Assembly: GCF_003018255.1 (NCBI RefSeq)
Contig: NZ_CP027440.1
Origin: Escherichia coli
Lineage (GTDB): Bacteria; Pseudomonadota; Gammaproteobacteria; Enterobacterales; Enterobacteriaceae
DNA length: 64,000 nt
Reading direction: 5' to 3' (one strand)
Position 1 is the first letter of the stretch; each line of letters begins with the position of its first letter. The notes below the pieces were generated by a model. It searched no databases. It was given only the letters and a program-made list of their open reading frames with translations, and was not told where the DNA came from. Of this stretch, positions 1-13,724 are shown piece by piece. Both the position numbers and the translations under genes were made by a program.

Positions 1-1
1 T

Positions 2-1426
2 CAAACACCACGTAATTTATCGATTATTAGTCCAACAGGGCTTGGCGATCGCGCCGACCGTGGTATTAGTCCGCTGGCGCAAGAAGGCCTGGTGAAATGG
101 GCATTATGCGGTCACTGGGGACAATCGCCGCGTATTTCTGATCTCGCAGAACAAAATAAAATTATTGCTTATAACTATCCACAAGGTGTACTTACACAAA
201 CCTTACGCGCCGCCGCAGCCCACCAGCCTGGTATTATTAGTGATATTGGCATCGGAACATTTGTCGATCCACGCCAGCAAGGCGGCAAACTGAATGAAGT
301 CACTAAAGAAGACCTGATTAAACTGGTCGAGTTTGATAACAAAGAATATCTCTATTACAAAGCGATAGCGCCAGATATCGCCTTCATTCGCGCTACCACC
401 TGCGACAGCGAAGGCTACGCCACTTTTGAAGATGAGGTGATGTATCTCGACGCATTGGTTATTGCTCAGGCGGTGCACAATAACGGCGGTATTGTGATGA
501 TGCAGGTGCAGAAAATGGTTAAGAAAGCCACGCTGCATCCTAAATCTGTCCGTATTCCGGGTTATCTGGTGGATATTGTGGTGGTCGATCCGGATCAAAC
601 CCAACTGTATGGCGGAGCGCCGGTTAACCGCTTTATTTCTGGTGACTTCACCCTTGATGACAGCACCAAACTTAGCCTGCCCCTAAACCAACGTAAATTA
701 GTTGCACGGCGTGCATTATTCGAAATGCGCAAAGGCGCAGTGGGGAATGTCGGCGTCGGTATTGCTGACGGCATTGGCCTGGTCGCCCGGGAAGAAGGTT
801 GTGCTGATGACTTTATTCTGACGGTAGAAACAGGTCCGATTGGCGGTATTACTTCACAGGGGATCGCCTTTGGCGCGAACGTGAATACCCGCGCCATTCT
901 GGATATGACGTCCCAGTTTGATTTTTATCACGGTGGTGGTCTGGATGTTTGTTATTTGAGTTTTGCTGAAGTCGACCAGCACGGTAACGTCGGCGTGCAT
1001 AAATTCAATGGTAAAATCATGGGCACCGGTGGATTTATTGATATCAGTGCCACTTCGAAGAAAATCGTTTTCTGCGGCACATTAACTGCGGGCAGTTTAA
1101 AAACAGAAATTACCGACGGCAAATTAAATATCGTCCAGGAAGGACGGGTGAAGAAATTTATTCGGGAACTACCAGAAATTACTTTTAGCGGAAAAATCGC
1201 GCTCGAGCGAGGGCTGGATGTTCGTTATATCACTGAGCGCGCCGTATTCACGCTGAAAGAAGACGGCCTGCATTTAATCGAAATCGCTCCTGGCGTCGAT
1301 TTACAAAAAGATATTCTCGACAAAATGGATTTCACCCCAGTGATTTCGCCAGAACTCAAACTGATGGACGAAAGATTATTTATCGATGCGGCGATGGGTT
1401 TTGTCCTGCCTGAAGCGGCTCATTAA
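2..1426 (+). CDS. ydiF: Short-chain acyl-CoA:acetate/acetoacetate CoA-transferase, fused alpha/beta subunit (5' end lies upstream of the window)
   Basis: Open frame from position 2 with no stop until TAA at 1424-1426; translation recognised as the C-terminal part of YdiF; gene continues upstream of the window. Confidence 0.85.
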   Translation, partial: QTPRNLSIISPTGLGDRADRGISPLAQEGLVKWALCGHWGQSPRISDLAEQNKIIAYNYPQGVLTQTLRAAAAHQPGIISDIGIGTFVDPRQQGGKLNEVTKEDLIKLVEFDNKEYLYYKAIAPDIAFIRATTCDSEGYATFEDEVMYLDALVIAQAVHNNGGIVMMQVQKMVKKATLHPKSVRIPGYLVDIVVVDPDQTQLYGGAPVNRFISGDFTLDDSTKLSLPLNQRKLVARRALFEMRKGAVGNVGVGIADGIGLVAREEGCADDFILTVETGPIGGITSQGIAFGANVNTRAILDMTSQFDFYHGGGLDVCYLSFAEVDQHGNVGVHKFNGKIMGTGGFIDISATSKKIVFCGTLTAGSLKTEITDGKLNIVQEGRVKKFIRELPEITFSGKIALERGLDVRYITERAVFTLKEDGLHLIEIAPGVDLQKDILDKMDFTPVISPELKLMDERLFIDAAMGFVLPEAAH

Positions 1427-1439
1427 CAGGAGTATAATG

Positions 1440-2591
1440 ATGGATTTTTCTTTAACTGAAGAACAAGAACTGCTGCTGGCCAGTATTCGCGAACTGATTA
1501 CGACTAACTTTCCGGAAGAGTATTTCCGCACCTGCGATCAAAACGGGACATACCCGCGTGAATTTATGCGGGCACTGGCGGATAACGGTATTTCCATGCT
1601 TGGCGTGCCGGAAGAATTTGGTGGTATCCCTGCGGATTACGTCACCCAAATGCTGGCGCTGATGGAAGTGTCAAAATGCGGTGCCCCGGCATTTTTGATC
1701 ACCAACGGTCAATGTATTCACAGTATGCGCCGTTTCGGTTCTGCAGAGCAGCTACGTAAAACGGCGGAAAGCACCCTGGAAACGGGTGATCCCGCCTATG
1801 CCCTGGCATTGACGGAACCAGGCGCAGGCTCAGATAACAACAGCGCCACCACCACTTACACGCGTAAAAACGGCAAGGTTTACATCAACGGCCAGAAAAC
1901 CTTTATTACCGGTGCGAAAGAGTACCCGTATATGCTGGTGCTGGCGCGCGATCCAGAACCGAAAGATCCGAAAAAGGCCTTCACCCTGTGGTGGGTCGAC
2001 TCCAGTAAGCCCGGCATTAAGATTAACCCGCTGCATAAAATCGGCTGGCATATGCTCAGCACCTGCAAAGTCTATCTCGACAACGTAGAGGTTGAAGAGA
2101 GCGACATGGTGGGCGAAGAAGGAATGGGTTTCCTCAATGTGATGTATAACTTTGAGATGGAGCGCCTGATCAACGCCGCGCGCAGCACCGGCTTTGCCGA
2201 GTGTGCCTTTGAAGATGCCGCCCGCTATGCCAACCAACGTATCGCTTTTGGTAAGCCCATTGGTCATAACCAGATGATCCAGGAAAAACTGGCGCTGATG
2301 GCGATTAAGATCGACAACATGCGCAACATGGTGTTGAAAGTGGCATGGCAAGCCGATCAGCATCAGTCACTGCGCACCAGCGCGGCGCTGGCAAAACTGT
2401 ACTGCGCACGTACCGCAATGGAAGTTATTGATGATGCGATTCAAATCATGGGCGGTCTGGGCTATACCGATGAGGCGCGCGTCTCTCGCTTCTGGCGTGA
2501 TGTCCGTTGTGAACGTATCGGCGGCGGTACAGACGAAATTATGATTTACGTAGCGGGTCGGCAGATCCTGAAAGATTATCAGAACAAATAA
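1440..2591 (+). CDS. ydiO: FAD-dependent acyl-CoA dehydrogenase (CaiA-like)
   Basis: ORF-track frame 1386..2591; start placed at ATG 1440 (MDFSLTEEQ...) 7 nt after a CAGGAG Shine-Dalgarno at 1427-1432, giving the remembered 383 aa; ATG 1437 is an alternative. Confidence 0.88.
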   Translation: MDFSLTEEQELLLASIRELITTNFPEEYFRTCDQNGTYPREFMRALADNGISMLGVPEEFGGIPADYVTQMLALMEVSKCGAPAFLITNGQCIHSMRRFGSAEQLRKTAESTLETGDPAYALALTEPGAGSDNNSATTTYTRKNGKVYINGQKTFITGAKEYPYMLVLARDPEPKDPKKAFTLWWVDSSKPGIKINPLHKIGWHMLSTCKVYLDNVEVEESDMVGEEGMGFLNVMYNFEMERLINAARSTGFAECAFEDAARYANQRIAFGKPIGHNQMIQEKLALMAIKIDNMRNMVLKVAWQADQHQSLRTSAALAKLYCARTAMEVIDDAIQIMGGLGYTDEARVSRFWRDVRCERIGGGTDEIMIYVAGRQILKDYQNK

Positions 2592-2633
2592 TCTGCAGGC
2601 GGCGCAGCTTCTTAACAAACTGCGCCGCCAGAT

Positions 2634-3545
2634 TTATCCGGCAAGACTTATCGGTTGAGGAAATTCAGATAAGATTTCTTGTTCCGCAAAACAGTTTTTA
2701 AATTGCCTGCGGTAATCGCTGGGCGAACAGCCGACATGGCGCAAAAACAGTTTGGCAAAGTGATCGACATTTTCATAACCCACACGCCAGGAGATCTCTG
2801 CCTGTGATAATTCAGTATTAGTGAGTGACCATTTCGCTTCCGTCATACGCCGTTGAATAACATAGTTAATAGGGGAAATGCGATACTCTTTGGTAAATTC
2901 ATGGCAAATATAACTGACGCTGGCACGAAACTTTTTCGATAACTGCTCTAAAGTGATTTTTTCGCGATAATTATTATTCAGATAGAAAAGAATATCTTTT
3001 ATCAGAACATCTTTTTTAATATACCCCTGCTCCGAACGATAAGCATTTTTAAAGTTTTCATAGTAAAGAATTGCTAACGTATAGGCAAATGCGTCCCATA
3101 ACGAAGATGTTTGGCTATTTTTACTTTGCGGCAAAATCACACTTAGCTCATTAAATAAGGTTTTAATGACTTCTTTTCCCTGCCCTGCGGCAATTACCGG
3201 GCAAGAATGCGGTTGCAGTAGCTGATTTTCCTCAGCCCCCTGAAACTGAAAGCCGTACAGCGCACAGGTACACGTCGTTGCTGGATCGTTAACGTCAGAG
3301 GCCACCGCATGCAACCTGCCACGTTCTATCACCACAATGTCATCGGCATGCGCGACATATAACGAAGAATCGATGGTAAACCTTGCTACCCCTTTCTTGA
3401 CGTAAATCAACTCGGTTTCATTGTCATGAACGTGATGTCCGGACTCCCATTTTGGATCATCGCTAAATGCAAAACGTGAAAGCCGTGGCGTTTTACCGGC
3501 GACAAACAGCGTTTCGCTGGCGTTATCAAAACAGCGTTGATACAT
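2634..3545 (-). CDS. ydiP: AraC/XylS-family transcriptional regulator
   Basis: 303-aa ORF; C-terminal helix-turn-helix region typical of AraC family; convergent with ydiO and divergent from ydiQ. Confidence 0.88.
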   Translation of the reverse strand: MYQRCFDNASETLFVAGKTPRLSRFAFSDDPKWESGHHVHDNETELIYVKKGVARFTIDSSLYVAHADDIVVIERGRLHAVASDVNDPATTCTCALYGFQFQGAEENQLLQPHSCPVIAAGQGKEVIKTLFNELSVILPQSKNSQTSSLWDAFAYTLAILYYENFKNAYRSEQGYIKKDVLIKDILFYLNNNYREKITLEQLSKKFRASVSYICHEFTKEYRISPINYVIQRRMTEAKWSLTNTELSQAEISWRVGYENVDHFAKLFLRHVGCSPSDYRRQFKNCFAEQEILSEFPQPISLAG

Positions 3546-3860
3546 GACAACCTCCCTATTCCATGAGCAAGCAAAAACAATATATGCCGGATAAAATACG
3601 GCGTGTATTGCGGTTATACAACCGTGTTTAGCGAGAGCTAAACAAGATTATTTACACTGAATGCAAGATTGTACGGTCATGGAATAACAACATTGCCGCA
3701 AATTGCACTTTTGTTTTAGCGATCGCATTTTTTTTGCAAGATTGTTGGCAAGGAAAACAGCTTGCTCCGTCGAAAACCCCGCACCGCTACCGCACACTAT
3801 TTTCAGGCCATTTTTACCTTCCATCGGAGATGGTTCCGTATGCGACTCACAGGAGAAATC

Positions 3861-4625
3861 ATGAAAATAATAACCTGCTTTAAGCTGGTGCCTGAAGAAC
3901 AGGACATTGTTGTCACTCCAGAATATACCCTGAATTTCGACAATGCCGACGCCAAAATCAGCCAGTTCGATCTCAATGCCATTGAAGCTGCAAGCCAGCT
4001 TGCAACAGATGACGATGAGATAGCCGCGCTGACCGTCGGCGGCTCTTTGTTGCAGAACTCGAAAGTGCGCAAAGACGTGCTATCCCGCGGGCCGCACAGC
4101 CTGTATATGGTGCAGGATGCACAACTTGAGCATGCACTGCCTCTCGATACCGCAAAGGCGCTGGCGACAGCAGTTGAAAAGATCGGCTTCGATTTACTGA
4201 TCTTTGGTGAAGGTTCCGGCGACCTTTATGCCCAGCAGGTTGGCTTGCTGGTCGGAGAAATTCTGCAACTTCCGGTGATTAATGCAGTGAGTGCCATTCA
4301 GCGTCAGGGCAATACACTGGTGATTGAACGCACGCTTGAAGATGATGTTGAAGTTATTGAACTCTCTGTTCCAGCCGTGCTCTGCGTCACCTCCGATATT
4401 AACGTACCACGTATTCCTTCGATGAAAGCCATCCTCGGCGCGGGTAAAAAACCGGTAAATCAGTGGCAGGCAAGTGATATTGGCTGGAGCCAGAGCGCAC
4501 CACTTGCTGAACTGACCGGCATTCGCGTACCGCCGCAAACAGAACGTAAGCACATCATTCTCGATAACGATTCGCCGGAGGCCATTGCCGAGCTGGCAGA
4601 ACATCTGAAGAAAGCCCTGAACTGA
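3861..4625 (+). CDS. ydiQ: Electron-transfer flavoprotein beta-subunit-like protein (FixA-like)
   Basis: ORF-track frame 3762..4625 trimmed to ATG 3861 (MKIITCFKLVPEE...) preceded by AGGAGA at 3851-3856; 254 aa. Confidence 0.9.
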   Translation: MKIITCFKLVPEEQDIVVTPEYTLNFDNADAKISQFDLNAIEAASQLATDDDEIAALTVGGSLLQNSKVRKDVLSRGPHSLYMVQDAQLEHALPLDTAKALATAVEKIGFDLLIFGEGSGDLYAQQVGLLVGEILQLPVINAVSAIQRQGNTLVIERTLEDDVEVIELSVPAVLCVTSDINVPRIPSMKAILGAGKKPVNQWQASDIGWSQSAPLAELTGIRVPPQTERKHIILDNDSPEAIAELAEHLKKALN

Positions 4626-4644
4626 AGCCTACGGAGAAGAAACG

Positions 4645-5583
4645 ATGAGTCAATTAAACAGCGTCTGGGTCTTTAGCGATAATCCTGAACGTTATGCTGA
4701 ACTGTTTGGCGGCGCTCAGCAATGGGGCCAACAGGTGTATGCCATTGTACAAAATACCGACCAGGCGCAGACAGTTATGCCTTATGGGCCAAAATGCATT
4801 TATGTTCTTGCGCAAAACGACGCGCTGCAACGTACTGAAAATTACGCCGAAAGCATTGCTGCCCTGCTGAAAGATAAACACCCTTCTATGTTGCTGCTGG
4901 CCGCGACGAAACGCGGTAAAGCTCTGGCTGCACGGTTAAGTGTGCAACTGAATGCGGCGCTGGTGAACGATGCCACTGCGGTGGATATTGTCGATGGTCA
5001 CATTTGCGCCGAACACCGGATGTATGGCGGGTTAGCGTTCGCACAGGAAAAGATCAATAGCCCGCTGGCGATCATTACCCTTGCGCCCGGTGTTCAGGAA
5101 CCGTGCACCAGTGATACCTCTAATCAGTGTCCGACAGAAACGGTACCTTATGTTGCCCCGCGTCATGAAATTCTCTGTCGCGAACGCCGTGCGAAAGCGG
5201 CAAGCAGCGTGGACCTGAGCAAAGCAAAACGTGTGGTTGGCGTCGGTCGTGGTCTGGCAGCGCAGGATGACCTGAAAATGGTCCACGAACTGGCGGCGGT
5301 GCTGAATGCTGAAGTCGGCTGTTCACGTCCAATTGCCGAAGGCGAGAACTGGATGGAGCGTGAACGTTATATCGGTGTCTCCGGCGTGTTGCTGAAATCC
5401 GATCTCTACCTGACGCTGGGGATCTCCGGGCAGATCCAGCATATGGTTGGCGGCAACGGCGCAAAAGTGATTGTCGCCATTAATAAAGATAAAAATGCGC
5501 CAATCTTCAACTATGCCGACTACGGTCTGGTGGGCGATATCTACAAAGTCGTCCCTGCCCTGATTAGCCAGTTGAGTCGCTGA
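4645..5583 (+). CDS. ydiR: Electron-transfer flavoprotein alpha-subunit-like protein (FixB-like)
   Basis: 312-aa ORF starting 20 nt after the ydiQ stop, preceded by GGAGAAG; EtfA-like C-terminal FAD-binding region. Confidence 0.9.
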   Translation: MSQLNSVWVFSDNPERYAELFGGAQQWGQQVYAIVQNTDQAQTVMPYGPKCIYVLAQNDALQRTENYAESIAALLKDKHPSMLLLAATKRGKALAARLSVQLNAALVNDATAVDIVDGHICAEHRMYGGLAFAQEKINSPLAIITLAPGVQEPCTSDTSNQCPTETVPYVAPRHEILCRERRAKAASSVDLSKAKRVVGVGRGLAAQDDLKMVHELAAVLNAEVGCSRPIAEGENWMERERYIGVSGVLLKSDLYLTLGISGQIQHMVGGNGAKVIVAINKDKNAPIFNYADYGLVGDIYKVVPALISQLSR

Positions 5584-5637
5584 TTCCCTTTCAACCACAT
5601 CTCCCGCTGTAAACGCAGCGGGAAGGGAGCATAACGC

Positions 5638-6927
5638 ATGTCGGATGACAAATTTGATGCCATTGTGGTCGGTGCGGGCGTTGCCGGTAGCGTTGCCGCA
5701 CTGGTCATGGCGCGAGCCGGGCTGGATGTCCTGGTGATAGAACGCGGCGACAGTGCCGGATGTAAAAACATGACCGGCGGGCGTCTTTATGCCCACACAC
5801 TTGACGCAATTATTCCAGGCTTTGCAGCATCAGCGCCGGTAGAACGCAAGGTCACACGCGAGAAAATCTCCTTCTTAACCGAAGAAAGCGCCGTTACCCT
5901 CGATTTTCACCGCGAGCAACCAGATGTTCCGCAACACGCGTCTTATACCGTATTGCGTAATCGTCTGGACCCGTGGTTGATGGAACAAGCCGAGCAGGCG
6001 GGCGCGCAGTTTATCCCGGGCGTACGCGTCGATGCACTGGTTCGTGAAGGAAACAAGGTCACTGGCGTCCAGGCCGGGGATGATATTCTCGAAGCGAATG
6101 TGGTGATTCTGGCTGATGGCGTTAACTCGATGCTTGGCCGCTCGCTGGGAATGGTTTCCGCTTCCGATCCGCATCATTACGCTGTTGGTGTTAAAGAGGT
6201 TATAGGCCTGACACCAGAACAGATCAACGATCGCTTTAATGTTACGGGCGAGGAAGGTGCCGCCTGGCTGTTTGCCGGTTCCCCTTCTGACGGCCTGATG
6301 GGCGGCGGATTCCTCTATACCAACAAAGATTCCGTATCGTTGGGGCTGGTTTGTGGATTGGGTGATATCGCCCATGCGCAAAAAAGTGTGCCGCAAATGC
6401 TGGAAGATTTTAAACAACACCCCGCCATTCGCCCGCTGATTAGCGGCGGCAAACTGCTTGAATACTCCGCGCATATGGTGCCGGAGGGCGGTCTGGCAAT
6501 GGTGCCGCAGCTGGTTAACGATGGCGTGATGATCGTTGGTGACGCCGCAGGCTTCTGCCTGAATTTGGGTTTTACGGTCCGCGGCATGGATTTAGCCATT
6601 GCATCGGCTCAGGCTGCCGCCACAACAGTGATCGCCGCCAAAGAACGCGCGGATTTCTCCGCCAGCAGTCTTGCGCAATACAAACGTGAGCTGGAACAAA
6701 GCTGCGTCATGCGTGATATGCAGCATTTTCGCAAGATCCCGGCGCTGATGGAAAACCCGCGCCTGTTTAGCCAATACCCACGAATGGTCGCCGACATCAT
6801 GAACGAGATGTTCACCATCGACGGCAAACCTAACCAACCGGTACGCAAAATGATCATGGGACACGCGAAGAAAATTGGACTGATCAACTTGCTGAAAGAT
6901 GGCATTAAGGGAGCAACCGCGCTATGA
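5638..6927 (+). CDS. ydiS: FAD-dependent oxidoreductase, FixC-like (Etf-quinone oxidoreductase family)
   Basis: 429-aa ORF; N-terminal dinucleotide-binding motif VVGAGVAGSVAA visible in the translation. Confidence 0.9.
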   Translation: MSDDKFDAIVVGAGVAGSVAALVMARAGLDVLVIERGDSAGCKNMTGGRLYAHTLDAIIPGFAASAPVERKVTREKISFLTEESAVTLDFHREQPDVPQHASYTVLRNRLDPWLMEQAEQAGAQFIPGVRVDALVREGNKVTGVQAGDDILEANVVILADGVNSMLGRSLGMVSASDPHHYAVGVKEVIGLTPEQINDRFNVTGEEGAAWLFAGSPSDGLMGGGFLYTNKDSVSLGLVCGLGDIAHAQKSVPQMLEDFKQHPAIRPLISGGKLLEYSAHMVPEGGLAMVPQLVNDGVMIVGDAAGFCLNLGFTVRGMDLAIASAQAAATTVIAAKERADFSASSLAQYKRELEQSCVMRDMQHFRKIPALMENPRLFSQYPRMVADIMNEMFTIDGKPNQPVRKMIMGHAKKIGLINLLKDGIKGATAL

Positions 6928-7217
6928 GCCAGAACGCTACGGTTAACGTCGACATCAAATTAGGCGTAAATAAATTCCATGTTGATGAGGGCCACCCGCA
7001 TATCATTCTGGCGGCAAATCCCGATATCAATGAATTCCGTAAATTAATGAAAGCCTGCCCTGCCGGACTTTATAAGCAGGATGACGCAGGAAACATTCAT
7101 TTCGATTCCGCCGGTTGTCTGGAGTGCGGCACCTGTCGGGTGCTGTGCGGCAACACTATTCTCGAACAGTGGCAATATCCCGCAGGCACCTTCGGTATTG
7201 AATTTCGCTACGGCTAA
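6924..7217 (+). CDS. ydiT: Ferredoxin-like protein, FixX-like
   Basis: 97-aa ORF whose ATG overlaps the ydiS stop (ATGA); cysteine cluster CLECGTCRVLC in the translation. Confidence 0.9.
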   Translation: MSQNATVNVDIKLGVNKFHVDEGHPHIILAANPDINEFRKLMKACPAGLYKQDDAGNIHFDSAGCLECGTCRVLCGNTILEQWQYPAGTFGIEFRYG

Positions 7218-7219
7218 TC

Positions 7220-8920
7220 ATGCATCCCACAGGCCCGCATCTCGGGCCTGATGTTCTGTTTCGAGAGTCCAAAATGAAAGTGACATTAACGTTCAACGAA
7301 CAACGTCGTGCGGCGTATCGTCAGCAAGGGTTATGGGGCGATGCTTCACTGGCCGATTACTGGCAGCAGACCGCTCGTGCGATGCCAGACAAAATTGCCG
7401 TGGTCGACAATCATGGTGCAACGTACACTTATAGCGCGCTCGATCACGCCGCGAGCTGTCTGGCAAACTGGATGTTAGCGAAGGGTATTGAATCAGGCGA
7501 TCGCATCGCATTTCAACTGCCAGGCTGGTGTGAATTTACCGTTATCTATCTTGCCTGCCTGAAAACCGGTGCGGTTTCCGTGCCGCTGTTGCCTTCCTGG
7601 CGAGAAGCAGAACTGGTGTGGGTGCTCAATAAGTGTCAGGCAAAAATGTTCTTTGCACCGACGTTGTTTAAACAAACGCGTCCGGTAGATTTAATCCTGC
7701 CGCTGCAAAATCAGCTTCCACAACTACAACAAATTGTCGGCGTGGACAAACTGGCTCCCGCCACCTCTGCTCTCTCATTAAGTCAGATTATCGCCGACAA
7801 TACTCCTCTGACCACGGCGATAACGGTCCACGGCGATGAATTAGCCGCGGTGCTGTTTACCTCCGGAACCGAGGGTCTGCCAAAGGGCGTGATGCTAACG
7901 CATAACAATATTCTCGCCAGTGAGCGGGCTTATTGCGCGCGGCTAAATCTGACCTGGCAGGATGTCTTTATGATGCCTGCGCCACTTGGTCACGCAACGG
8001 GCTTTCTGCATGGCGTAACAGCACCTTTTTTGATTGGTGCTCGCAGCGTGTTGTTAGATATTTTCACTCCTGCTGCGTGTCTCGCGCTGCTTGAGCAGCA
8101 GCGTTGCACCTGTATGCTCGGCGCAACGCCGTTTGTCTATGATCTTTTGAATTTACTGGAGAAACAGCCCGCAGACCTTTCAGCGCTGCGTTTCTTTCTT
8201 TGCGGCGGTACCACAATCCCCAAAAAAGTGGCGCGTGAATGCCAGCAGCGCGGCATTAAATTATTAAGTGTTTATGGTTCCACAGAAAGTTCGCCGCATG
8301 CGGTGGTGAATCTCGATGATCCTTTGTCGCGCTTTATACACACCGATGGTTACGCTGCCGCAGGTGTAGAGATTAAAGTGGTCGATGACGCACGCAAGAC
8401 TTTACCGCCAGGTTGCGAAGGTGAAGAAGCCTCGCGTGGCCCCAATGTGTTTATGGGGTATTTTGATGAACCTGAATTAACCGCCCGTGCGCTGGATGAA
8501 GAAGGCTGGTATTACAGCGGCGATCTCTGCCGCATGGATGAGGCTGGCTATATAAAAATAACCGGGCGCAAGAAAGATATTATTGTCCGCGGCGGCGAAA
8601 ATATTAGCAGCCGTGAAGTAGAAGATATTTTATTGCAGCATCCTAAAATTCACGATGCTTGTGTGGTTGCAATGCCCGATGAACGCTTAGGTGAACGTTC
8701 ATGCGCTTATGTCGTGCTGAAAGCACCGCATCATTCATTATCGCTGGAAGATGTAGTGGCATTTTTTAGCCGTAAACGGGTCGCGAAATATAAATATCCT
8801 GAACATATCGTGGTAATCGAAAAACTACCGCGCACAGCCTCAGGTAAAATACAAAAGTTTTTGTTAAGGAAAGATATTATGCGGCGATTAACTCAGGATG
8901 TCTGTGAAGAGATTGAATAA
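7220..8920 (+). CDS. fadK: Short/medium-chain acyl-CoA synthetase (AMP-forming)
   Basis: 566-aa ORF starting 2 nt after the ydiT stop; AMP-binding signature FTSGTEGLPKGV; an internal ATG at 7274 (MKVTLTF...) is an alternative start. Confidence 0.85.
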   Translation: MHPTGPHLGPDVLFRESKMKVTLTFNEQRRAAYRQQGLWGDASLADYWQQTARAMPDKIAVVDNHGATYTYSALDHAASCLANWMLAKGIESGDRIAFQLPGWCEFTVIYLACLKTGAVSVPLLPSWREAELVWVLNKCQAKMFFAPTLFKQTRPVDLILPLQNQLPQLQQIVGVDKLAPATSALSLSQIIADNTPLTTAITVHGDELAAVLFTSGTEGLPKGVMLTHNNILASERAYCARLNLTWQDVFMMPAPLGHATGFLHGVTAPFLIGARSVLLDIFTPAACLALLEQQRCTCMLGATPFVYDLLNLLEKQPADLSALRFFLCGGTTIPKKVARECQQRGIKLLSVYGSTESSPHAVVNLDDPLSRFIHTDGYAAAGVEIKVVDDARKTLPPGCEGEEASRGPNVFMGYFDEPELTARALDEEGWYYSGDLCRMDEAGYIKITGRKKDIIVRGGENISSREVEDILLQHPKIHDACVVAMPDERLGERSCAYVVLKAPHHSLSLEDVVAFFSRKRVAKYKYPEHIVVIEKLPRTASGKIQKFLLRKDIMRRLTQDVCEEIE

Positions 8921-8945
8921 GTTTCATCTTCGGGGATCACATAAA

Positions 8946-8980
8946 CCCGGCGACAAAACGCCGCCGGGGATTTATTTTAT
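8946..8980. terminator. Hairpin plus T-tract between convergent fadK and ppsA (candidate bidirectional terminator)
   Basis: Stem cccggcg (8946-8952) pairs with cgccggg (8962-8968), followed by tttattttatttc. Confidence 0.5.
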
Positions 8981-11355
8981 TTCTTCAGTTCAGCCAGGCT
9001 TAACCAGGTTTGCACCACGGTATCCGGGTTCAGAGACAGGCTATCGATCCCCTCTTCCATCAACCATGCGGCAAAGTCTTCGTGGTCGGACGGACCCTGA
9101 CCGCAAATCCCGACATATTTGCCCTGTTTCTTCGCGGCACGAATCGCCATCGACAGCAGTGCTTTCACCGCATCGTTGCGCTCATCGAACAGTTCAGACA
9201 CCACTCCGGAGTCACGGTCCAGACCGAGCGCCAGCTGTGTCATGTCGTTTGAGCCAATTGAGAAGCCGTCGAAATATTCGAGGAACTGCTCTGCCAGCAA
9301 GGCGTTGGACGGAATTTCACACATCATGATGATTTTCAGCCCGTTCTCACCACGTTTCAGCCCCTGACGCGCCAGTTCCTCAACCACCGCTTTCGCCTGA
9401 TCTACGGTACGCACGAACGGGATCATGATCTCAACGTTGGTCAGCCCCATGTCGTTGCGCACACGTTTCACTGCTTCACACTCCAGCGCGAAGCAGTCGC
9501 GGAAGCTGTCGGAAACATAGCGGCCCGCGCCACGGAAGCCGAGCATCGGGTTCTCTTCATCTGGCTCGTAACGCTCACCACCGACCAGGTTGGCATATTC
9601 GTTCGATTTAAAATCAGAGAGACGGACAATGACGCGCTTCGGATAAAACGCGGCACCCAGCGTCGCGATCCCTTCAGTCAGACGCCCAACGTAAAATTCA
9701 CGCGGAGAATCAAAACCTTTCATCATCTCGCGGATTTCGTTTTGCAACTGCGGTTCCTGATCGTCAAACTCAAGCAGTGCGCGTGGGTGGACGCCAATCA
9801 TACGGTTGATGATAAATTCCAGACGCGCAAGGCCGACGCCTTCGTTCGGCAGGCAGGCGAAGTCGAAAGCACGGTCCGGGTTACCGACGTTCATCATCAC
9901 CTTCAACGGCAGATCAGGCATCGTTTCTACGCTGGAGCTTTTCACGCTAAATTCCAGCAACTCCGCATAGACGTAACCGGTATCACCTTCGGCACAAGAA
10001 ACAGTGACGTTCTCACCGTCTTTCATCCGTTCTGTTGCATCACCACAGCCCACTACCGCCGGAATGCCGAGTTCACGAGCGATGATCGCCGCGTGACAGG
10101 TACGACCGCCACGGTTGGTGACGATGGCAGATGCTTTCTTCATGATCGGTTCCCAGTCCGGGTCGGTCATGTCAGTGACCAGCACGTCTCCAGGTTCGAT
10201 GCGGTTCATTTCGCTGATGTCATGGATGACTTTCACCGGACCCGCACCGATGCGATGACCGATAGCACGGCCTTCGGCGATAATCTTACCCTGTGAATGC
10301 AGCGTATAACGCTCCATGACCTGACCGCGTGAGCGCACGGTTTCCGGACGCGCCTGCACAATGAACAGTTTACCGGTGTGGCCATCTTTCGCCCACTCAA
10401 TATCCATTGGGCGACCGTAGTGTTTCTCAATTTGTACGGCCTGTTTTGCCAGTTCCTGCACTTCTTCGTTGGTCAGCGAGAAGATGTCACGCTGTTCTTG
10501 CGGTACGTCCTCGATTTTAACCTGCTTGCCGTGCTCCTGGGTCGGCGCGTAAACCATGCGGATTTTTTTCGACCCCATGGTGCGGCGCACGATAGCCGGG
10601 CGATTCGCCGCCAGTGTCGGTTTGTGCACGTAAAACTCATCCGGGTTAACCGCACCCTGCACGACCATTTCACCAAGGCCCCATGCGGAAGTGATAAACA
10701 CCACCTGGTCAAAGCCGGATTCGGTATCAATGGAGAACATCACGCCAGAAGATGCGAGGTCGGAGCGCACCATCCGCTGAACACCGGCGGACAGCGCCAC
10801 GCCACGGTGATCGTAACCCTGGTGCACACGATAAGAGATGGCGCGATCGTTAAACAGAGAAGCAAATACATGTTTCACAGCCACGAGAACGGCGTCAAAA
10901 CCCTGAACGTTGAGGAAAGTTTCCTGCTGACCGGCAAAAGAAGCGTCCGGCATATCTTCTGCAGTAGCGGAGGAACGCACCGCAAACGAGGCGTTTTCGT
11001 CATCGGCGGAAAGCTGTGCATAGGCTTCGCGGATGGCGTTTTCCAGCTCAGGCTGGAAGGGAGTGTCGATAATCCACTGGCGGATTTGCGCGCCCGCTTT
11101 CGCAAGCTGGGTAACATCGTCAATATCCGTTTTATCCAGCAGTTCATAAATGCGCTGGTTTACGCCGCTTTGGTCCAGAAACTGGTTAAACGCGTCGGCG
11201 GTTGTGGCGAAACCATTCGGAACGGAAACACCCATTCCGGAAAGGTTAGTAATCATTTCACCCAGGGAGGCATTTTTGCCCCCAACCCTGTCTACATCAT
11301 TCATGCCGAGTTGGTTATACCAAAGCACCAGCGGTGACGAGCCATTGTTGGACAT
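8977..11355 (-). CDS. ppsA: Phosphoenolpyruvate synthase
   Basis: 792-aa ORF; translation recognised as PEP synthase ([34 protein letters not shown]...). Confidence 0.97.
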
Positions 11356-11443
11356 CGAACAATCCTTTTGTGATAAATGAACGGTTTGAGAAACACATTT
11401 CTGCGCATTTATCTTTGCATATTTAACCGGATGAAAAAAACGG

Positions 11444-11454
11444 TGAATCGTTCA
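11444..11454. promoter_or_regulatory. Candidate Cra (FruR) site in the ppsA upstream region
   Basis: tgaatcgttca in the ppsA/ppsR divergent spacer resembles the Cra half-site-palindrome TGAAxCGxTTCA; ppsA is a known Cra-activated gene. Confidence 0.35.
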
Positions 11455-11687
11455 AGCAAATATATTTTTTTACTTTTTAAGACTGATCCCAGCGTTGCGC
11501 AAATCTGCTCTCTTCGACAATTTCCACATAAACCATCGGTATAAACGAAACCGTAAAAATGAAATGCTGTTTTCATAAAAAATAAAATTGAAGGTTCATT
11601 TTATAAACCAGACATAACGTTCTACGCTTCTGTGCGTTTTTAATTTATGCTTTCATAGAATTATGTCTGCATCACGGGAAGAACAAA

Positions 11688-12521
11688 ATGGATAATGCTG
11701 TTGATCGCCACGTTTTTTATATTTCTGATGGTACGGCAATAACTGCGGAGGTATTAGGACACGCAGTAATGTCACAATTTCCCGTCACTATCAGCAGCAT
11801 TACGCTGCCGTTTGTCGAAAATGAGAGCCGTGCACGGGCAGTGAAGGATCAGATTGACGCAATTTATCACCAGACAGGTGTGCGCCCGCTGGTCTTCTAC
11901 TCCATCGTGTTGCCGGAGATTCGCGCCATCATCTTGCAAAGTGAGGGCTTTTGCCAGGATATCGTTCAGGCGCTGGTTGCCCCGCTACAACAAGAGATGA
12001 AACTGGATCCAACGCCGATTGCTCATCGTACCCATGGCCTTAACCCTAATAATCTCAATAAATATGATGCGCGCATTGCTGCGATTGATTACACCCTCGC
12101 CCACGATGATGGCATTTCGTTACGCAATCTGGACCAGGCTCAGGTGATCCTGCTCGGCGTTTCTCGCTGTGGTAAAACCCCCACCAGTCTGTATCTGGCA
12201 ATGCAGTTTGGTATCCGCGCGGCAAACTACCCCTTTATTGCCGACGATATGGATAATCTTGTGCTACCCGCGTCGCTCAAACCGCTTCAGCATAAATTGT
12301 TCGGCCTGACTATCGACCCGGAACGTCTGGCGGCGATTCGCGAGGAACGTCGGGAGAACAGTCGCTATGCCTCGCTTCGTCAGTGCAGGATGGAAGTCGC
12401 GGAAGTGGAAGCGTTGTACCGTAAAAATCAGATCCCGTGGATTAACAGTACCAATTATTCGGTAGAAGAGATTGCCACCAAGATCCTCGATATCATGGGC
12501 CTTAGCCGTCGAATGTACTAG
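11688..12521 (+). CDS. ppsR: PEP synthase regulatory protein (bifunctional kinase/pyrophosphorylase)
   Basis: 277-aa ORF divergent from ppsA; P-loop GVSRCGKT in the translation. Confidence 0.95.
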
Positions 12522-12532
12522 AGAACTAGTGC
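12515..12532 (+). promoter_or_regulatory. TrpR operator of the aroH promoter
   Basis: gtactagagaactagtgc is a near-palindromic match to the TrpR box (G-ACTAG-N-CTAGT-C); followed by a tatcat -10-like hexamer near 12551. Confidence 0.8.
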
Positions 12533-12677
12533 ATTAGCTTGTTTTTTTGTTATCATGCTAACCACCCGGCGAGGTGTGACACACCTCGCACTTGAAATCA
12601 GCTGCGATTGGTTTATCGTGATGCGCATCACTTCCCGGTAGTCCTGCCGTAGAAGCAACAAATTTCTGAGACTTGTA

Positions 12678-13724
12678 ATGAACAGAACTGACGAACTCCG
12701 TACTGCGCGTATTGAGAGCCTGGTAACGCCCGCCGAACTCGCGCTACGGTATCCCGTAACGCCTGGCGTCGCCACCCATGTCACCGACTCCCGCCGCAGA
12801 ATTGAAAAAATACTGAATGGTGAAGATAAGCGACTGTTGGTCATTATTGGCCCCTGCTCGATCCACGATCTCACCGCTGCAATGGAGTACGCCACCCGTC
12901 TGCAGTCGCTGCGCAACCAGTACCAGTCACGGCTGGAAATCGTAATGCGCACCTATTTTGAAAAACCACGAACTGTTGTCGGCTGGAAAGGGCTAATCTC
13001 CGATCCAGATTTAAACGGCAGCTATCGGGTAAATCACGGTCTGGAGCTGGCGCGCAAATTACTTTTACAGGTAAATGAGCTGGGCGTCCCTACCGCGACT
13101 GAGTTCCTCGATATGGTGACCGGTCAGTTTATTGCTGATTTAATCAGTTGGGGCGCGATTGGCGCACGTACTACCGAAAGTCAGATCCACCGTGAAATGG
13201 CTTCGGCACTCTCCTGTCCGGTAGGTTTTAAAAATGGTACCGATGGCAACACGCGGATTGCCGTGGATGCTATCCGCGCAGCCCGCGCCAGCCATATGTT
13301 CCTCTCGCCAGACAAAAATGGTCAGATGACCATCTATCAGACCAGCGGCAACCCGTATGGCCACATTATTATGCGTGGCGGCAAAAAACCGAATTATCAT
13401 GCCGATGATATCGCCGCAGCCTGCGATACGCTGCACGAGTTTGATTTACCTGAACATCTGGTGGTGGATTTCAGCCACGGTAACTGCCAGAAGCAGCACC
13501 GACGCCAGTTAGAAGTTTGTGAGGATATTTGTCAGCAAATCCGCAATGGATCTACGGCGATTGCTGGAATTATGGCGGAAAGTTTCCTGCGCGAAGGAAC
13601 GCAAAAAATCGTCGGCGGTCAGCCGCTCACTTACGGTCAATCCATTACCGACCCGTGTCTGGGCTGGGAAGATACCGAACGCCTGGTCGAAAAACTCGCC
13701 TCTGCGGTAGATACTCGCTTCTGA
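12678..13724 (+). CDS. aroH: 3-deoxy-D-arabino-heptulosonate-7-phosphate synthase, Trp-sensitive
   Basis: 348-aa ORF; translation recognised as class I DAHP synthase. Confidence 0.97.
   Translation: MNRTDELRTARIESLVTPAELALRYPVTPGVATHVTDSRRRIEKILNGEDKRLLVIIGPCSIHDLTAAMEYATRLQSLRNQYQSRLEIVMRTYFEKPRTVVGWKGLISDPDLNGSYRVNHGLELARKLLLQVNELGVPTATEFLDMVTGQFIADLISWGAIGARTTESQIHREMASALSCPVGFKNGTDGNTRIAVDAIRAARASHMFLSPDKNGQMTIYQTSGNPYGHIIMRGGKKPNYHADDIAAACDTLHEFDLPEHLVVDFSHGNCQKQHRRQLEVCEDICQQIRNGSTAIAGIMAESFLREGTQKIVGGQPLTYGQSITDPCLGWEDTERLVEKLASAVDTRF

What the first reader, a model, noticed from the sequence alone, without database searches (positions are those of the whole stretch)
2..8920. FixABCX-like flavoprotein module sandwiched between an acyl-CoA dehydrogenase, a CoA-transferase and an acyl-CoA synthetase
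ydiQ-ydiR-ydiS-ydiT (EtfB-like, EtfA-like, FAD oxidoreductase, ferredoxin-like) sit immediately downstream of an AraC regulator (ydiP) and next to ydiO (acyl-CoA dehydrogenase), ydiF (CoA-transferase) and fadK (acyl-CoA synthetase). The layout resembles electron-bifurcating or low-potential acyl-CoA dehydrogenase/Etf systems and the carnitine CaiA/FixABCX pairing. The physiological substrate and the electron partner of this E. coli module are, to my knowledge, not firmly established; it has been linked to anaerobic fatty-acid use. It is a conserved but under-characterised system, not a new one.
Basis: partly seen in the sequence, partly recalled or inferred. Interest (0 to 1): 0.45.

Follow-up and report, generated by a model that had tools for sequence, protein, structure and literature searches.

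The report
E. coli ydi acyl-CoA/flavoprotein gene cluster
This is the known but poorly understood E. coli ydiF-ydiO-ydiP-ydiQRST-fadK locus, a non-bifurcating sister of the carnitine cai/fix system, and comparison with other bacteria suggests that its real job may be to reduce plant-derived quinate/shikimate rather than to burn fatty acids.

Summary
Window 2-8920 holds ydiF (cut at its 5' end), ydiO, ydiP (opposite strand), ydiQ, ydiR, ydiS, ydiT and fadK. The block is 99.9% identical to E. coli chromosomes and occurs in 5425 of 5426 complete genomes.

The carnitine comparison holds: YdiO and YdiQ/R/S/T are 43-64% identical to CaiA and FixA/B/C/X. The electron-bifurcating comparison does not. 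YdiQ has Leu-Tyr where all five solved bifurcating EtfB have the invariant Gly-Asp of DGDT. YdiR has His where they have the conserved Arg. YdiT has cysteines for one [4Fe-4S] cluster, not two. The module reads as a one-flavin ETF wired through YdiT and YdiS to the quinone pool.

New lead: in 41-42 of 43 species-level loci with a true YdiO, ydiN-ydiB-aroD (transporter, quinate/shikimate dehydrogenase, dehydroquinase) adjoin ydiF-ydiO. Four different gene orders occur in three GC-distinct lineages, and in two of them aroD lies inside the etf/fixCX operon. Shikimate is itself an enoate. Sutterella wadsworthensis, which carries the cluster, respires shikimate. I propose CoA-dependent quinate/shikimate reduction (about 45% likely). 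The published fatty-acid role is the main rival.

The locus is already known. Interest is moderate because the hypothesis is directly testable.

The parts
2..1426 (+). ydiF, 3' 474 codons. A family I (fused alpha/beta) acyl-CoA:acetate/3-ketoacid CoA-transferase. Its 5' end lies before the window.
   Evidence: The full-length protein equals PDB 2AHU/2AHV/2AHW. No similarity to CaiB.
1440..2591 (+). ydiO, a CaiA-like FAD acyl-CoA dehydrogenase / enoyl-CoA reductase
   Evidence: It reaches its own NCBIfam equivalog NF008997 (784 bits); the CaiA model comes second at 450 bits, below its cut-off. It is 48% identical to CaiA. Glu241 before Arg242 on helix G is conserved, and Gly replaces the MCAD-type Glu (IGGGTDEI).
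2634..3545 (-). ydiP, an AraC-family regulator, divergent from ydiQ
3643..3745 (+). Three copies of CAAGATT(G/A)T at 3643, 3664 and 3737. Two of them form an exact 11-mer, TGCAAGATTGT, 73 bp apart. This is a candidate operator in the ydiP|ydiQ intergenic region.
   Evidence: The motif is kept in this intergenic region in 13 of 14 enterobacterial genera sampled. It also occurs in the equivalent promoter regions of L010 and S. wadsworthensis L046.
3861..4625 (+). ydiQ, EtfB-type small subunit of the E. coli FixA type, without the bifurcating-FAD signature
   Evidence: GEGSGD-L122-Y123-AQQVG where bifurcators have GRQAIDGDTAQVG
4645..5583 (+). ydiR, EtfA-type large subunit. The alpha-FAD site is kept (SRP, GISGQIQH). 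There is no N-terminal ferredoxin domain.
   Evidence: EHRMYGGL where bifurcators have TRPAFGGN
5638..6927 (+). ydiS, a FixC / ETF-quinone oxidoreductase-like flavoprotein with a quinone-binding domain
   Evidence: 7koe_C 242 bits; 2gmh 89 bits; Pfam ETFQO_UQ-bd, 3.6e-9
6924..7217 (+). ydiT, a FixX-type ferredoxin-like protein with cysteines for a single [4Fe-4S] cluster. It overlaps ydiS by 4 nt.
7230..7250 (+). GC-rich hairpin between ydiT and fadK, followed by a weak U tract. Possibly an attenuator or an mRNA-stabilising element.
   Evidence: (-21.3 kcal/mol, z = -2.5)
7274..8920 (+). fadK (ydiD), an AMP-forming acyl-CoA synthetase
   Evidence: equivalog NF004758, 1086 bits; the second-best model is cyclohexanecarboxylate-CoA ligase TIGR03208 at 420 bits, below its cut-off
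8946..8968 (.). Stem-loop between the convergent fadK and ppsA genes, a likely shared terminator

Best explanation
The eight genes form the redox half of a larger conserved unit: ydiN-ydiB-aroD / ydiF-ydiO / ydiP / ydiQRST-fadK. It works like the carnitine Cai/Fix system, not like a bifurcating Etf.

Proposed chain of events. A carboxylic acid is turned into its CoA thioester. FadK primes this with ATP. YdiF then recycles CoA from product to fresh substrate, or takes it from acetyl-CoA. YdiO (FAD, catalytic Glu241 on helix G) interconverts the enoyl-CoA and the saturated acyl-CoA. Electrons travel YdiO <-> alpha-FAD of the one-flavin ETF YdiQR <-> the single [4Fe-4S] of YdiT <-> FAD of YdiS <-> the (mena)quinone pool. 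NADH and ferredoxin are not direct partners. YdiP probably controls ydiQRST-fadK through the CAAGATTGT repeats.

The most likely native substrate is a quinate-derived cyclohex-1-ene-1-carboxylate. YdiN imports quinate or shikimate. YdiB and AroD convert quinate via 3-dehydroquinate and 3-dehydroshikimate to shikimate. Shikimoyl-CoA (or 3-dehydroshikimoyl-CoA) is then reduced at C1=C2 to the hydroshikimate thioester, using quinol electrons. This would make quinate/shikimate an anaerobic electron sink.

Shown here: gene content, paralogy to cai/fix, absence of the bifurcation signature, presence of the quinone module, and conserved linkage to ydiB/aroD. Inferred: the direction of electron flow, the substrate, and the roles of FadK, YdiF, YdiN and YdiP.
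For: (1) Paralogy to CaiA/FixABCX over all five proteins, 43-64% identity (NCBIfam second-best hits).

(2) Non-bifurcating signature. All five solved bifurcating EtfB carry KQVP(D/G)T, ADxxAT(S/T) and DGDT. YdiQ has KLVPEE, LPLDTA and D-L122-Y123-A. The Gly is described as invariant in bifurcators and bulky in canonical ETFs (PMC12630350). YdiR has His124 at the Arg of TRPAFGGN. About 68 of 70 EtfB genes found next to YdiO/CaiA-like genes share G[ED]GSxD[LIMV]YAQQ[VT]G.

(3) YdiS matches T. maritima FixC at 242 bits and has the ETF-QO quinone-binding domain. YdiT keeps one of the two cluster motifs of T. maritima EtfX.

(4) Linkage. Of 43 loci with YdiO above 76% identity, 41 have YdiB, 42 AroD, 43 YdiF and 41 YdiN; the misses are one truncated locus (L015) and L019, where no YdiB ORF passed my filter. 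Of 41 loci with more distant YdiO-like genes, only 1 has them.

(5) Four gene orders occur in three GC classes (42-43%, 49%, 57-60%). These are the Enterobacterales order; Sutterella, with fadK-ydiTSRQ divergent from ydiN-ydiB-aroD-ydiF-ydiO; L010, ydiN-ydiF-ydiO-etfBA-ydiB-aroD-fixCX with gaps of -4 to 28 bp apart from one of 119; and L090, MFS-ydiF-ydiO-etfBA-aroD-fixCX-ligase. The in-operon AroD and YdiB copies keep their catalytic residues.

(6) Shikimate is an enoate. S. wadsworthensis grows by formate-dependent shikimate respiration to hydroshikimate, and its gene for this was not identified (bioRxiv 10.1101/2022.12.26.521950). The species carries the cluster (L046).

(7) Non-homologous displacement. 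In another lineage a YdiB-like gene, a type I dehydroquinase and transporters sit next to a BaiCD/FadH/enoate-reductase-family C=C reductase.

(8) Shikimoyl-CoA chemistry has a precedent: a 2020 ACS Catalysis title names a shikimoyl-CoA synthetase and an FAD-dependent dehydratase (seen only as a citation; that this dehydratase is ACAD-like is my recollection).

(9) ydiQ, R, S and T are jointly up-regulated late in a shikimate-overproducing culture (PMC4015609). YdiN is suspected to transport shikimate (PMC8788726).
Against: Published genetics assigns ydiO, ydiQRST and fadK to anaerobic fatty-acid beta-oxidation (Campbell 2003, Morgan-Kiss 2004 and Gulevich 2016, as cited in the papers read). 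FadK and YdiF have measured activities on short or medium fatty acyl substrates.

No experiment links E. coli to shikimate reduction, and no held paper mentions such a link.

aroD is also the biosynthetic dehydroquinase of E. coli, so part of the linkage within Enterobacterales could be inherited synteny. In E. coli a hairpin and an AT-rich gap separate aroD from ydiF. The CAAGATTGT motif is absent upstream of ydiN and ydiF, so co-regulation in E. coli is not shown.

S. wadsworthensis also has many periplasmic flavin reductases that could be its shikimate reductase.

Of four YdiB-like contexts sampled in reverse, one was supportive, one was biosynthetic and two were uninformative.

Absence of a sequence signature does not prove absence of a second flavin.
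Confidence: 0.5

Rival explanations
1. The published view. [quoted passage not shown] FadK activates short or medium fatty acids, YdiO oxidises the acyl-CoA, and the ETF/YdiST chain passes the electrons to quinone and on to nitrate. The neighbouring ydiB-aroD genes are unrelated.
For: Literature summarised in PMC3896788 and PMC10318755 (citing Gulevich 2016). ETF to ETF-QO to quinone is the canonical oxidative route, and YdiS has the quinone-binding domain. The one-flavin ETF signature fits this model as well as the reductive one.
Against: No other beta-oxidation genes are in the locus. No FadR-like box was found above chance, although the consensus I used came from memory. The closest characterised relative, CaiA, is a reductase (annotation). 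The dehydroquinase and quinate/shikimate dehydrogenase genes are kept with ydiF-ydiO-etf through four rearrangements, including inside the operon, which fatty-acid oxidation does not explain. The reported FadK activity on long chains is low and anaerobic growth on oleate is slow.
Confidence: 0.3
2. An electron-bifurcating (or ferredoxin-dependent) enoyl-CoA reductase, as in Bcd-EtfAB, CarCDE or nitrogen-fixation FixABCX. YdiQR would split NADH electrons between enoyl-CoA or quinone and a low-potential ferredoxin or flavodoxin. This is the model used for engineered reverse beta-oxidation.
For: The best PDB hits of YdiQ are bifurcating EtfB proteins (CarD 84 bits). The four-subunit FixABCX architecture is shared with T. 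maritima EtfABCX. The idea appears in metabolic-engineering papers.
Against: The defining Gly of DGDT is Leu, and the KQVPDT, ADTxATS and TRPAFGGN motifs are all lost. YdiQ is further from CarD (84 bits) than CarD is from human ETF-beta (102 bits). YdiT lacks one of the two clusters. YdiR lacks the ferredoxin domain of CarE/LctC. PMC10318755 itself states that the role of YdiQRST in the reversal is unclear.
Confidence: 0.05
3. The same hydroaromatic link but in the opposite direction. The module would oxidise hydroshikimate or cyclohexane-carboxylate-type acids made by other gut microbes to shikimoyl-CoA. Electrons would go to quinone, and the shikimate would feed aromatic biosynthesis or the YdiB/AroD equilibrium.
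For: The ETF/ETF-QO chain is reversible in principle. The same comparative linkage applies. aroH and ppsA are adjacent.
Against: The characterised paralogue CaiA works reductively. Anaerobic expression of fadK is reported in the literature (title cited). S. wadsworthensis consumes shikimate as an acceptor. The enoate-reductase displacement in L094/L095 points to reduction.
Confidence: 0.1

Closest known systems
E. coli caiTABCDE-fixABCX (carnitine/crotonobetaine reduction)
   Same: A CaiA-like flavin reductase (48% identity). Paralogues of all four Fix proteins (43-64%). The same EtfB motif GxGSxDLYAQQVG. An AMP-forming ligase plus a CoA-transferase that can run a CoA loop. Divergent arrangement of the enzyme genes and the fix-type operon.
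   Different: YdiF is a family I CoA-transferase, not a family III CaiB type. There is no crotonase (CaiD), CaiE or BCCT antiporter. The regulator is an AraC type, not CaiF. The neighbours are quinate/shikimate dehydrogenase and dehydroquinase. YdiO meets its own NCBIfam equivalog and falls below the CaiA cut-off.
Acetobacterium woodii CarABCDE (caffeate respiration)
   Same: The same parts list and logic: ligase, CoA-transferase, ACAD-type enoyl-CoA reductase and EtfAB, reducing a plant-derived enoate. CarD is the best PDB hit of YdiQ.
   Different: CarDE is bifurcating (DGDT present, and CarE has an extra ferredoxin domain), soluble, and driven by NADH and ferredoxin. It has no FixC/FixX quinone module.
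Bifurcating EtfABCX/FixABCX (Thermotoga maritima 7KOE; Azotobacter vinelandii)
   Same: Four-subunit architecture. YdiS matches EtfC at 242 bits and YdiT matches EtfX at 57 bits.
   Different: The bifurcating-FAD signature is lacking in YdiQ/YdiR, and one of the two [4Fe-4S] motifs is lacking in YdiT.
Canonical ETF / ETF-ubiquinone oxidoreductase of beta-oxidation
   Same: A predicted one-flavin ETF that links an acyl-CoA dehydrogenase to quinone. YdiS has the ETF-QO quinone-binding domain.
   Different: The quinone reductase is split into YdiS plus YdiT. YdiQ is as far from human ETF-beta (54 bits) as from the bifurcators. AMP binding is untested. The context is anaerobic and the ACAD is CaiA-like.
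Flavin-type shikimate reductase of Eggerthella lenta and shikimate respiration of Sutterella wadsworthensis (Little et al.)
   Same: The same predicted net reaction, shikimate + 2[H] -> hydroshikimate, used as a respiratory sink.
   Different: The E. lenta enzyme is a secreted fumarate-reductase/UrdA-like flavin reductase that acts on the free acid. The ydi route would be cytoplasmic and CoA-dependent. It has not been demonstrated.

Membership tests
Electron-bifurcating EtfAB (Bcd/Car/Lct/Fix type) | A small residue (the invariant Gly, A. fermentans EtfB G123, in DGDT) that leaves room for the beta-FAD isoalloxazine | tested here: not met
   YdiQ has Leu122-Tyr123 and E. coli FixA has the same; all five solved bifurcators have G-D. 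The criterion comes from PMC12630350.
Electron-bifurcating EtfAB (Bcd/Car/Lct/Fix type) | Other motifs shared by all five solved bifurcators: EtfB KQVP(D/G)T and ADxxAT(S/T); EtfA domain I TRP(A/T)FGGN with the Arg next to the beta-FAD | tested here: not met
   YdiQ has KLVPEE and LPLDTA. YdiR has E-H124-R-M-Y-G-G-L. That these motifs contact the beta-FAD is partly my recollection of the structures.
Electron-bifurcating EtfAB (Bcd/Car/Lct/Fix type) | Two FAD per heterodimer; NADH oxidation coupled to ferredoxin or flavodoxin reduction | not testable with these tools
   Needs purified YdiQR
ETF superfamily (any type) | The alpha-FAD (electron-transfer flavin) site in EtfA domain II | tested here: met
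   YdiR keeps SRP and GISGQIQH and aligns end to end with domain II of 5ol2_A, 6fah_A and 7koe_B.
E. coli CaiA-FixABCX-type module | A CaiA-like ACAD with a helix-G catalytic Glu, plus FixA/B/C/X homologues with the GxGSxD[LIMV]YAQQ[VT]G EtfB motif | tested here: met
   They are paralogues, not orthologues: the CaiA, FixB and FixX models score below their cut-offs, while the FixA and FixC subfamily models are passed.
E. coli CaiA-FixABCX-type module | Family III CoA-transferase (CaiB), crotonase (CaiD) and betaine antiporter (CaiT) | tested here: not met
   YdiF is family I (PF01144-type, PDB 2AHU) with no similarity to CaiB. No CaiD or CaiT homologue is in the locus.
ETF:quinone oxidoreductase chain | A flavoprotein with a quinone-binding domain plus a [4Fe-4S] centre | tested here: met
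   YdiS has Pfam ETFQO_UQ-bd at 3.6e-9 and matches 7koe_C and 2gmh_A. YdiT has C45-P plus CxxCxxCxxxC. Cofactor content itself was not measured.
Anaerobic fatty-acid beta-oxidation (fad regulon type) | Genetic requirement for anaerobic growth on fatty acids; acyl-CoA dehydrogenase activity on straight chains | not testable with these tools
   Literature only.
Anaerobic fatty-acid beta-oxidation (fad regulon type) | A FadR operator, or co-localisation with other beta-oxidation genes | tested here: inconclusive
   No FadR-like box in the promoter regions above chance, but the consensus was taken from memory. No hydratase, dehydrogenase or thiolase genes are in the locus.
Hydroaromatic (quinate/shikimate) enoate-reduction cluster (proposed here) | Conserved clustering of ydiF-ydiO-etf-fixCX with a YdiB-type dehydrogenase, a type I dehydroquinase and a transporter, across rearrangements | tested here: met
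   41-42 of 43 loci, four gene orders, three GC classes. Catalytic residues are kept.
Hydroaromatic (quinate/shikimate) enoate-reduction cluster (proposed here) | Conversion of shikimate or quinate to hydroshikimate that depends on these genes | not testable with these tools
   Only indirect: S. wadsworthensis respires shikimate and carries the cluster (L046).

The most novel reading that the evidence does not exclude
The ydi region of E. coli and many Enterobacterales, and the same block in gut Sutterella, encodes a previously unassigned cytoplasmic, CoA-dependent 'quinate/shikimate respiration' pathway. YdiN imports the substrate. YdiB and AroD dehydrate quinate to shikimate. FadK and YdiF make shikimoyl-CoA. 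YdiO reduces it with quinol electrons delivered by YdiS-YdiT-YdiQR. This would give YdiB its long-missing physiological role. It would name the native substrate of YdiO/YdiQRST. It would also supply a genetic basis for the bacterial reduction of quinate to dihydroshikimate, which I recall as first described in cider lactobacilli in 1957.
Probability: 0.45. Interest if true: 0.75.

Novelty: already known. Interest (0 to 1): 0.5.

Why it matters
About ten adjacent E. coli genes remain without a settled physiological role: ydiN, ydiB, ydiF, ydiO, ydiP, ydiQRST and, in part, fadK. YdiO/YdiQRST are also used, with unclear mechanism, in engineered reverse beta-oxidation. Showing that the ETF is of the one-flavin, quinone-linked type tells engineers that NADH or ferredoxin will not drive it directly.

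Suppose the quinate/shikimate assignment is right. Enterobacteriaceae would then gain a new anaerobic electron acceptor that is abundant in plant-rich diets; my own knowledge is that chlorogenic acid releases quinate. That bears on gut colonisation. It also bears on the microbial fate of quinate, which I recall ends partly as urinary hippurate and cyclohexane-carboxylate conjugates. And it would explain by-product losses in industrial shikimate fermentations.

Tried and rejected
- Sigma-70 promoter and intrinsic-terminator scans of window 1-9200 and of the upstream region gave no more hits than shuffled sequence. Only the hairpins at 7230-7250, 8946-8968 and after aroD are worth noting.
- FNR, CRP and FadR consensus searches over the 24-kb locus were at chance level, with nothing in the ydiP|ydiQ region.
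- Rfam found nothing in window 1-12000 or in the long Sutterella intergenic region.
- The Etf classification paper (Garcia Costas 2017) is not held. I therefore derived the signature from the five solved bifurcating structures and from PMC12630350.
- A word-indexed homologue search with YdiB returned only near-identical E. coli proteins and was wasted. The representative search worked instead. Of the four contexts it led to, one was supportive, one was biosynthetic and two were too short.
- The numbers beside ydiQRST in PMC4015609 are rank-product values, not fold changes, so I use them only as evidence of co-listing.
- '3-hydroshikimate' in an E. coli Nissle supernatant preprint looks like a naming slip for a pathway intermediate and was not used.
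- The 19 positions that separate true YdiO from the paralogous group B cluster partly around helix G, but they cannot be interpreted without coordinates.
- I considered a bifurcating reading and a pure-synteny reading of the ydiB/aroD linkage. The first fails the signature test. The second cannot explain aroD lying between etfA and fixC in L010 and L090.

Full report
**What is there.** Window 1-12000 is 99.9% identical to the chromosome of E. coli DETEC-S792. It is found in 5425 of 5426 complete E. coli genomes, and 5360 of them hold at least 80% of it. The RefSeq annotation of that record and the ORF list agree on these genes, in window coordinates:
- ydiF, <1-1426, cut by the window edge, with the frame starting at base 2
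- ydiO, 1440-2591
- ydiP, 2634-3545, on the minus strand
- ydiQ, 3861-4625
- ydiR, 4645-5583
- ydiS, 5638-6927
- ydiT, 6924-7217
- fadK, 7274-8920
- ppsA, convergent, follows fadK

YdiO, YdiQ, YdiR, YdiS and FadK reach their own family models. For YdiO, YdiQ, YdiR and YdiS the CaiA, FixA, FixB and FixC models come second; the FixX model is YdiT's only hit, below its cut-off.

Two details need correcting. ydiP is divergent from ydiQ across 315 bp; it is not an upstream gene on the same strand. The gene block also continues upstream of the window with ydiL, ydiM, ydiN (MFS transporters), ydiB (quinate/shikimate dehydrogenase) and aroD (type I dehydroquinase).

Within the block the spacing fits the operon ydiQRST-fadK that databases list (table seen). 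The gaps are 19, 54, -4 and 56 nt. A stable hairpin lies at 7230-7250 between ydiT and fadK. ydiF and ydiO are 13 nt apart.

**Relation to cai/fix.** I fetched the K-12 cai-fix and ygc regions. Pairwise identities are:

| Pair | Identity |
|---|---|
| YdiO-CaiA | 48% |
| YdiQ-FixA | 55% |
| YdiR-FixB | 43% |
| YdiS-FixC | 61% |
| YdiT-FixX | 64% |
| FadK-CaiC | 29% |

YdiF has no similarity to CaiB. It is a family I CoA-transferase and its crystal structure is in the PDB as 'putative enzyme ydiF' (2AHU/2AHV/2AHW). YdiO, CaiA and their relatives have Gly where MCAD-type dehydrogenases have the catalytic Glu (IGGGTDEI against IYEGTSEI). They keep a Glu directly before the conserved Arg on helix G: FEMERL in 44 of 44 true YdiO sequences. 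From my knowledge of isovaleryl-CoA and long-chain acyl-CoA dehydrogenases, this is their alternative position for the catalytic residue.

**The bifurcation test.** The classification paper is not held, so I used two sources. One is the five solved bifurcating complexes: CarCDE 6FAH, C. difficile 5OL2, T. maritima EtfABCX 7KOE, A. fermentans 4KPU and LctBCD 7QH2. The other is the criterion in PMC12630350: a Gly (A. fermentans EtfB G123) is invariant in bifurcators because it leaves room for the beta-FAD ring, and canonical ETFs have bulkier residues there.

All five bifurcating EtfB read KQVP(D/G)T, ADxxAT(S/T) and G(R/K)Qx(I/V/T)DGDT(A/G)QVG. YdiQ reads KLVPEE, LPLDTA and GEGSGD-L122-Y123-AQQVG. 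E. coli FixA reads GDGSSDLYAQQVG. Human ETF-beta reads GKQAIDDDCNQTG.

On the large subunit, four bifurcators read TRPAFGGN or TRPTFGGN. YdiR reads EHRMYGGL and FixB reads KHMVYGGL. The alpha-FAD motifs (SRP, GISGQIQH) are intact, and YdiR lacks the N-terminal ferredoxin domain of CarE/LctC.

By phmmer score YdiQ is further from CarD (84 bits) than CarD is from human ETF-beta (102 bits). In a MAFFT alignment of about 70 EtfB genes found next to YdiO/CaiA-like genes in Proteobacteria, Bacillus and Coriobacteriia, 50 have LYA at the G-D-T columns. Sixteen more have I, M, V or T followed by YA, and only the five reference bifurcators have GDT.

YdiT has five cysteines (C45-P and C65xxC68xxC71xxxC75). 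T. maritima EtfX has two full cluster motifs, so YdiT has room for one [4Fe-4S] only. YdiS matches T. maritima FixC (242 bits) and porcine ETF-QO (89 bits), and it has the Pfam ETF-QO quinone-binding domain.

The sequence therefore describes a one-flavin ETF connected through an iron-sulfur protein and a flavoprotein to quinone. It does not describe a device that splits NADH electrons. This is a signature argument. Cofactor content has not been measured.

**What the neighbours say.** YdiO homologues fall into three groups.

- Group A: more than 76% identity, 43 loci from a one-genome-per-species collection plus metagenome contigs. It is always with YdiF (43 of 43) and nearly always with YdiB (41), AroD (42), YdiN (41), EtfB (41), FixC (40) and FadK (34). 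The misses are mostly loci cut by contig ends.
- Group B: 63-70% identity.
- Group C: 32-55% identity.

Among the 41 group B and C loci, only one has YdiB/AroD, and there it is because the locus abuts a group A locus.

More telling than the count are the rearrangements:
- Enterobacterales (Escherichia, Citrobacter, Kosakonia, Yersinia, Serratia, Dickeya, Brenneria and others) have ydiN-ydiB-aroD-ydiF-ydiO, then ydiP on the other strand, then ydiQRST-fadK.
- Sutterella seckii and S. wadsworthensis (Betaproteobacteria, 57-60% GC) have fadK-ydiTSRQ divergent from ydiN-ydiB-aroD-ydiF-ydiO (L042, L046, L091).
- A 42% GC metagenome contig (L010) has one tight operon, ydiN-ydiF-ydiO-etfB-etfA-ydiB-aroD-fixC-fixX, with gaps of 16, 24, 28, 13, 21, 119, 11 and -4 nt.
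- A related 43% GC contig (L090) has MFS-ydiF-ydiO-etfB-etfA-aroD-fixC-fixX-ligase.

In L010 the ETF and FixCX parts are only 44-55% identical to YdiQRST, while YdiF, YdiO and YdiB are 70-83% identical. The in-operon AroD copies keep E86, H143, K170 and R213, and the YdiB copies keep K71 and D107. That these are the catalytic residues is my own knowledge. A type I dehydroquinase has one known reaction. Its place between etfA and fixC cannot be explained by inherited synteny.

**From linkage to chemistry.** Shikimate is a cyclohex-1-ene-1-carboxylate, so shikimoyl-CoA is an enoyl-CoA. YdiB and AroD together turn quinate into shikimate through 3-dehydroquinate and 3-dehydroshikimate (established enzymology of these two enzymes). 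That sequence creates the double bond a CaiA-type reductase would need.

Several published and comparative observations point the same way.
- Their expression work covered E. lenta and H. filiformis only. The Sutterella gene is therefore unassigned, and the paper does not mention acyl-CoA enzymes or ETF. S. wadsworthensis DSM 14016 carries the ydi-type block (L046).
- In a further lineage, a YdiB-like gene (48% identity), a type I dehydroquinase, an MFS transporter and a TRAP transporter sit around a 693-residue Fe-S flavoenzyme of the BaiCD/FadH/enoate-reductase/bilirubin-reductase family. That is a different C=C reductase in the same company.
- Shikimoyl-CoA chemistry has a precedent in cyclohexanecarboxyl-CoA biosynthesis. 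I saw only the title of Skyrud et al. [quoted passage not shown]
- The second-best NCBIfam model for FadK is cyclohexanecarboxylate-CoA ligase.
- ydiQ, ydiR, ydiS and ydiT are listed together among genes up-regulated late in a shikimate-overproducing E. coli culture.
- YdiN is suspected to carry shikimate.
- No held paper connects ydiF, ydiO or ydiQRST with shikimate or quinate.

**Regulation.** The ydiP|ydiQ intergenic region has three same-strand copies of CAAGATT(G/A)T (window 3643, 3664, 3737). They include an exact 11-mer, TGCAAGATTGT, repeated 73 bp apart and found nowhere else in 24 kb. At least one copy is kept in that region in 13 of 14 enterobacterial genera sampled. The motif also lies in front of the single L010 operon. 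In S. wadsworthensis it occurs twice, once facing each divergent operon. It is a good candidate for the YdiP operator.

In E. coli the motif is absent upstream of ydiN and ydiF. A hairpin and an AT-rich gap separate aroD from ydiF. Co-regulation of the two halves in E. coli is therefore not shown.

**Weighing.** The established literature treats ydiO, ydiQRST and fadK as the anaerobic fatty-acid beta-oxidation set. I cannot test that genetics, and a one-flavin ETF chain fits it as well. What it does not explain is the persistent company of ydiB, aroD and a transporter. I therefore rate the options as follows:
- Cai/Fix-like, quinone-linked, non-bifurcating mechanism: well supported.
- Quinate/shikimate substrate: the single best-supported candidate, about 45%.
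- Fatty acids as the native substrate: the main rival, about 30%.
- The reverse (oxidative) hydroaromatic direction: about 10%.
- Bifurcation: about 5%.

**Verdict.** The carnitine analogy holds. The comparative data turn an open question into a short list of simple experiments.

Noticed in passing
L008/L052 (E. albertii), L057, L048/L049, L053/L073, L059, L004/L005/L058 (Desulfovibrio), L054, L011; adjacent to fadK in L036, L065, L047/L051, L006/L007: A paralogous cassette of unknown substrate. It holds a second ACAD (about 390-400 aa), a CaiB-like family III CoA-transferase, an MFS transporter, a YdiO-like ACAD (63-70% identity) and EtfBA. FixCX, a FadK-like ligase, a desulfoferrodoxin and an AraC regulator are present in some copies. 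In Serratia, Symbiopectobacterium, Prodigiosinella and a Pectobacteriaceae strain it sits directly downstream of fadK and has no ETF of its own, so ydiQRST-fadK may serve two ACAD systems there.
   Followed up: partly
L046 3655-5018 (S. wadsworthensis), also L042 3494-4949: A gap of about 1.4 kb between the divergent ydiQ and ydiN genes, in a 57-60% GC genome. In L046 it has no ORF of 80 aa or more and no Rfam match, and it carries the two oppositely oriented CAAGATTGT copies. L042 was not checked for ORFs or RNA families and has no copy of the motif. No ydiP homologue was seen in either Sutterella locus.
   Followed up: partly
window 8977-13724 (ppsA 8977-11355 minus strand, ppsR 11688-12521, aroH about 12678-13724): PEP synthase, its regulator and the Trp-sensitive DAHP synthase aroH follow fadK directly. 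Two shikimate-pathway genes (aroD upstream, aroH downstream) and a PEP-forming enzyme therefore flank the ydi redox genes. This may be coincidence.
   Followed up: no
window about 27337-28368: A ShET2/EspL2-family type III secretion effector toxin gene lies between thrS and yniD in the best-matching strain. It is probably a strain-variable insertion in an otherwise core region.
   Followed up: no
L094 1507-7772 and L095 2623-8888: A LysR regulator, a 693-704 aa BaiCD/FadH/enoate-reductase-family Fe-S flavoenzyme and a YdiB-like dehydrogenase are divergent from an MFS transporter, a type I dehydroquinase and TRAP transporter genes. This is a candidate CoA-independent quinate/shikimate reduction locus in an unidentified organism.
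   Followed up: partly
L009 10001-11143: A YdiO homologue (74% identity) stands alone, without YdiF, ETF or ydiB/aroD. It lies next to an aldo-keto reductase and an NrfD/4Fe-4S/multihaem cytochrome set in a 57% GC metagenome contig.
   Followed up: no
L003 6658-10556 (E. coli K-12 ygcNOP / ygcQR): This is the third ETF/FixCX-like set of E. coli. YgcR also lacks the DGDT motif (it reads SSEGQNGQTP) and is only about 25% identical to YdiQ. It lies next to a putative FAD dehydrogenase (ygcU) and a transporter.
   Followed up: partly
window 7220-7273: The longest fadK ORF starts at ATG 7220, giving 566 aa. That would put the 7230-7250 hairpin inside the coding sequence. RefSeq starts at 7274 (548 aa), which has a GAGAG Shine-Dalgarno-like sequence 8 nt upstream.
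   Followed up: partly
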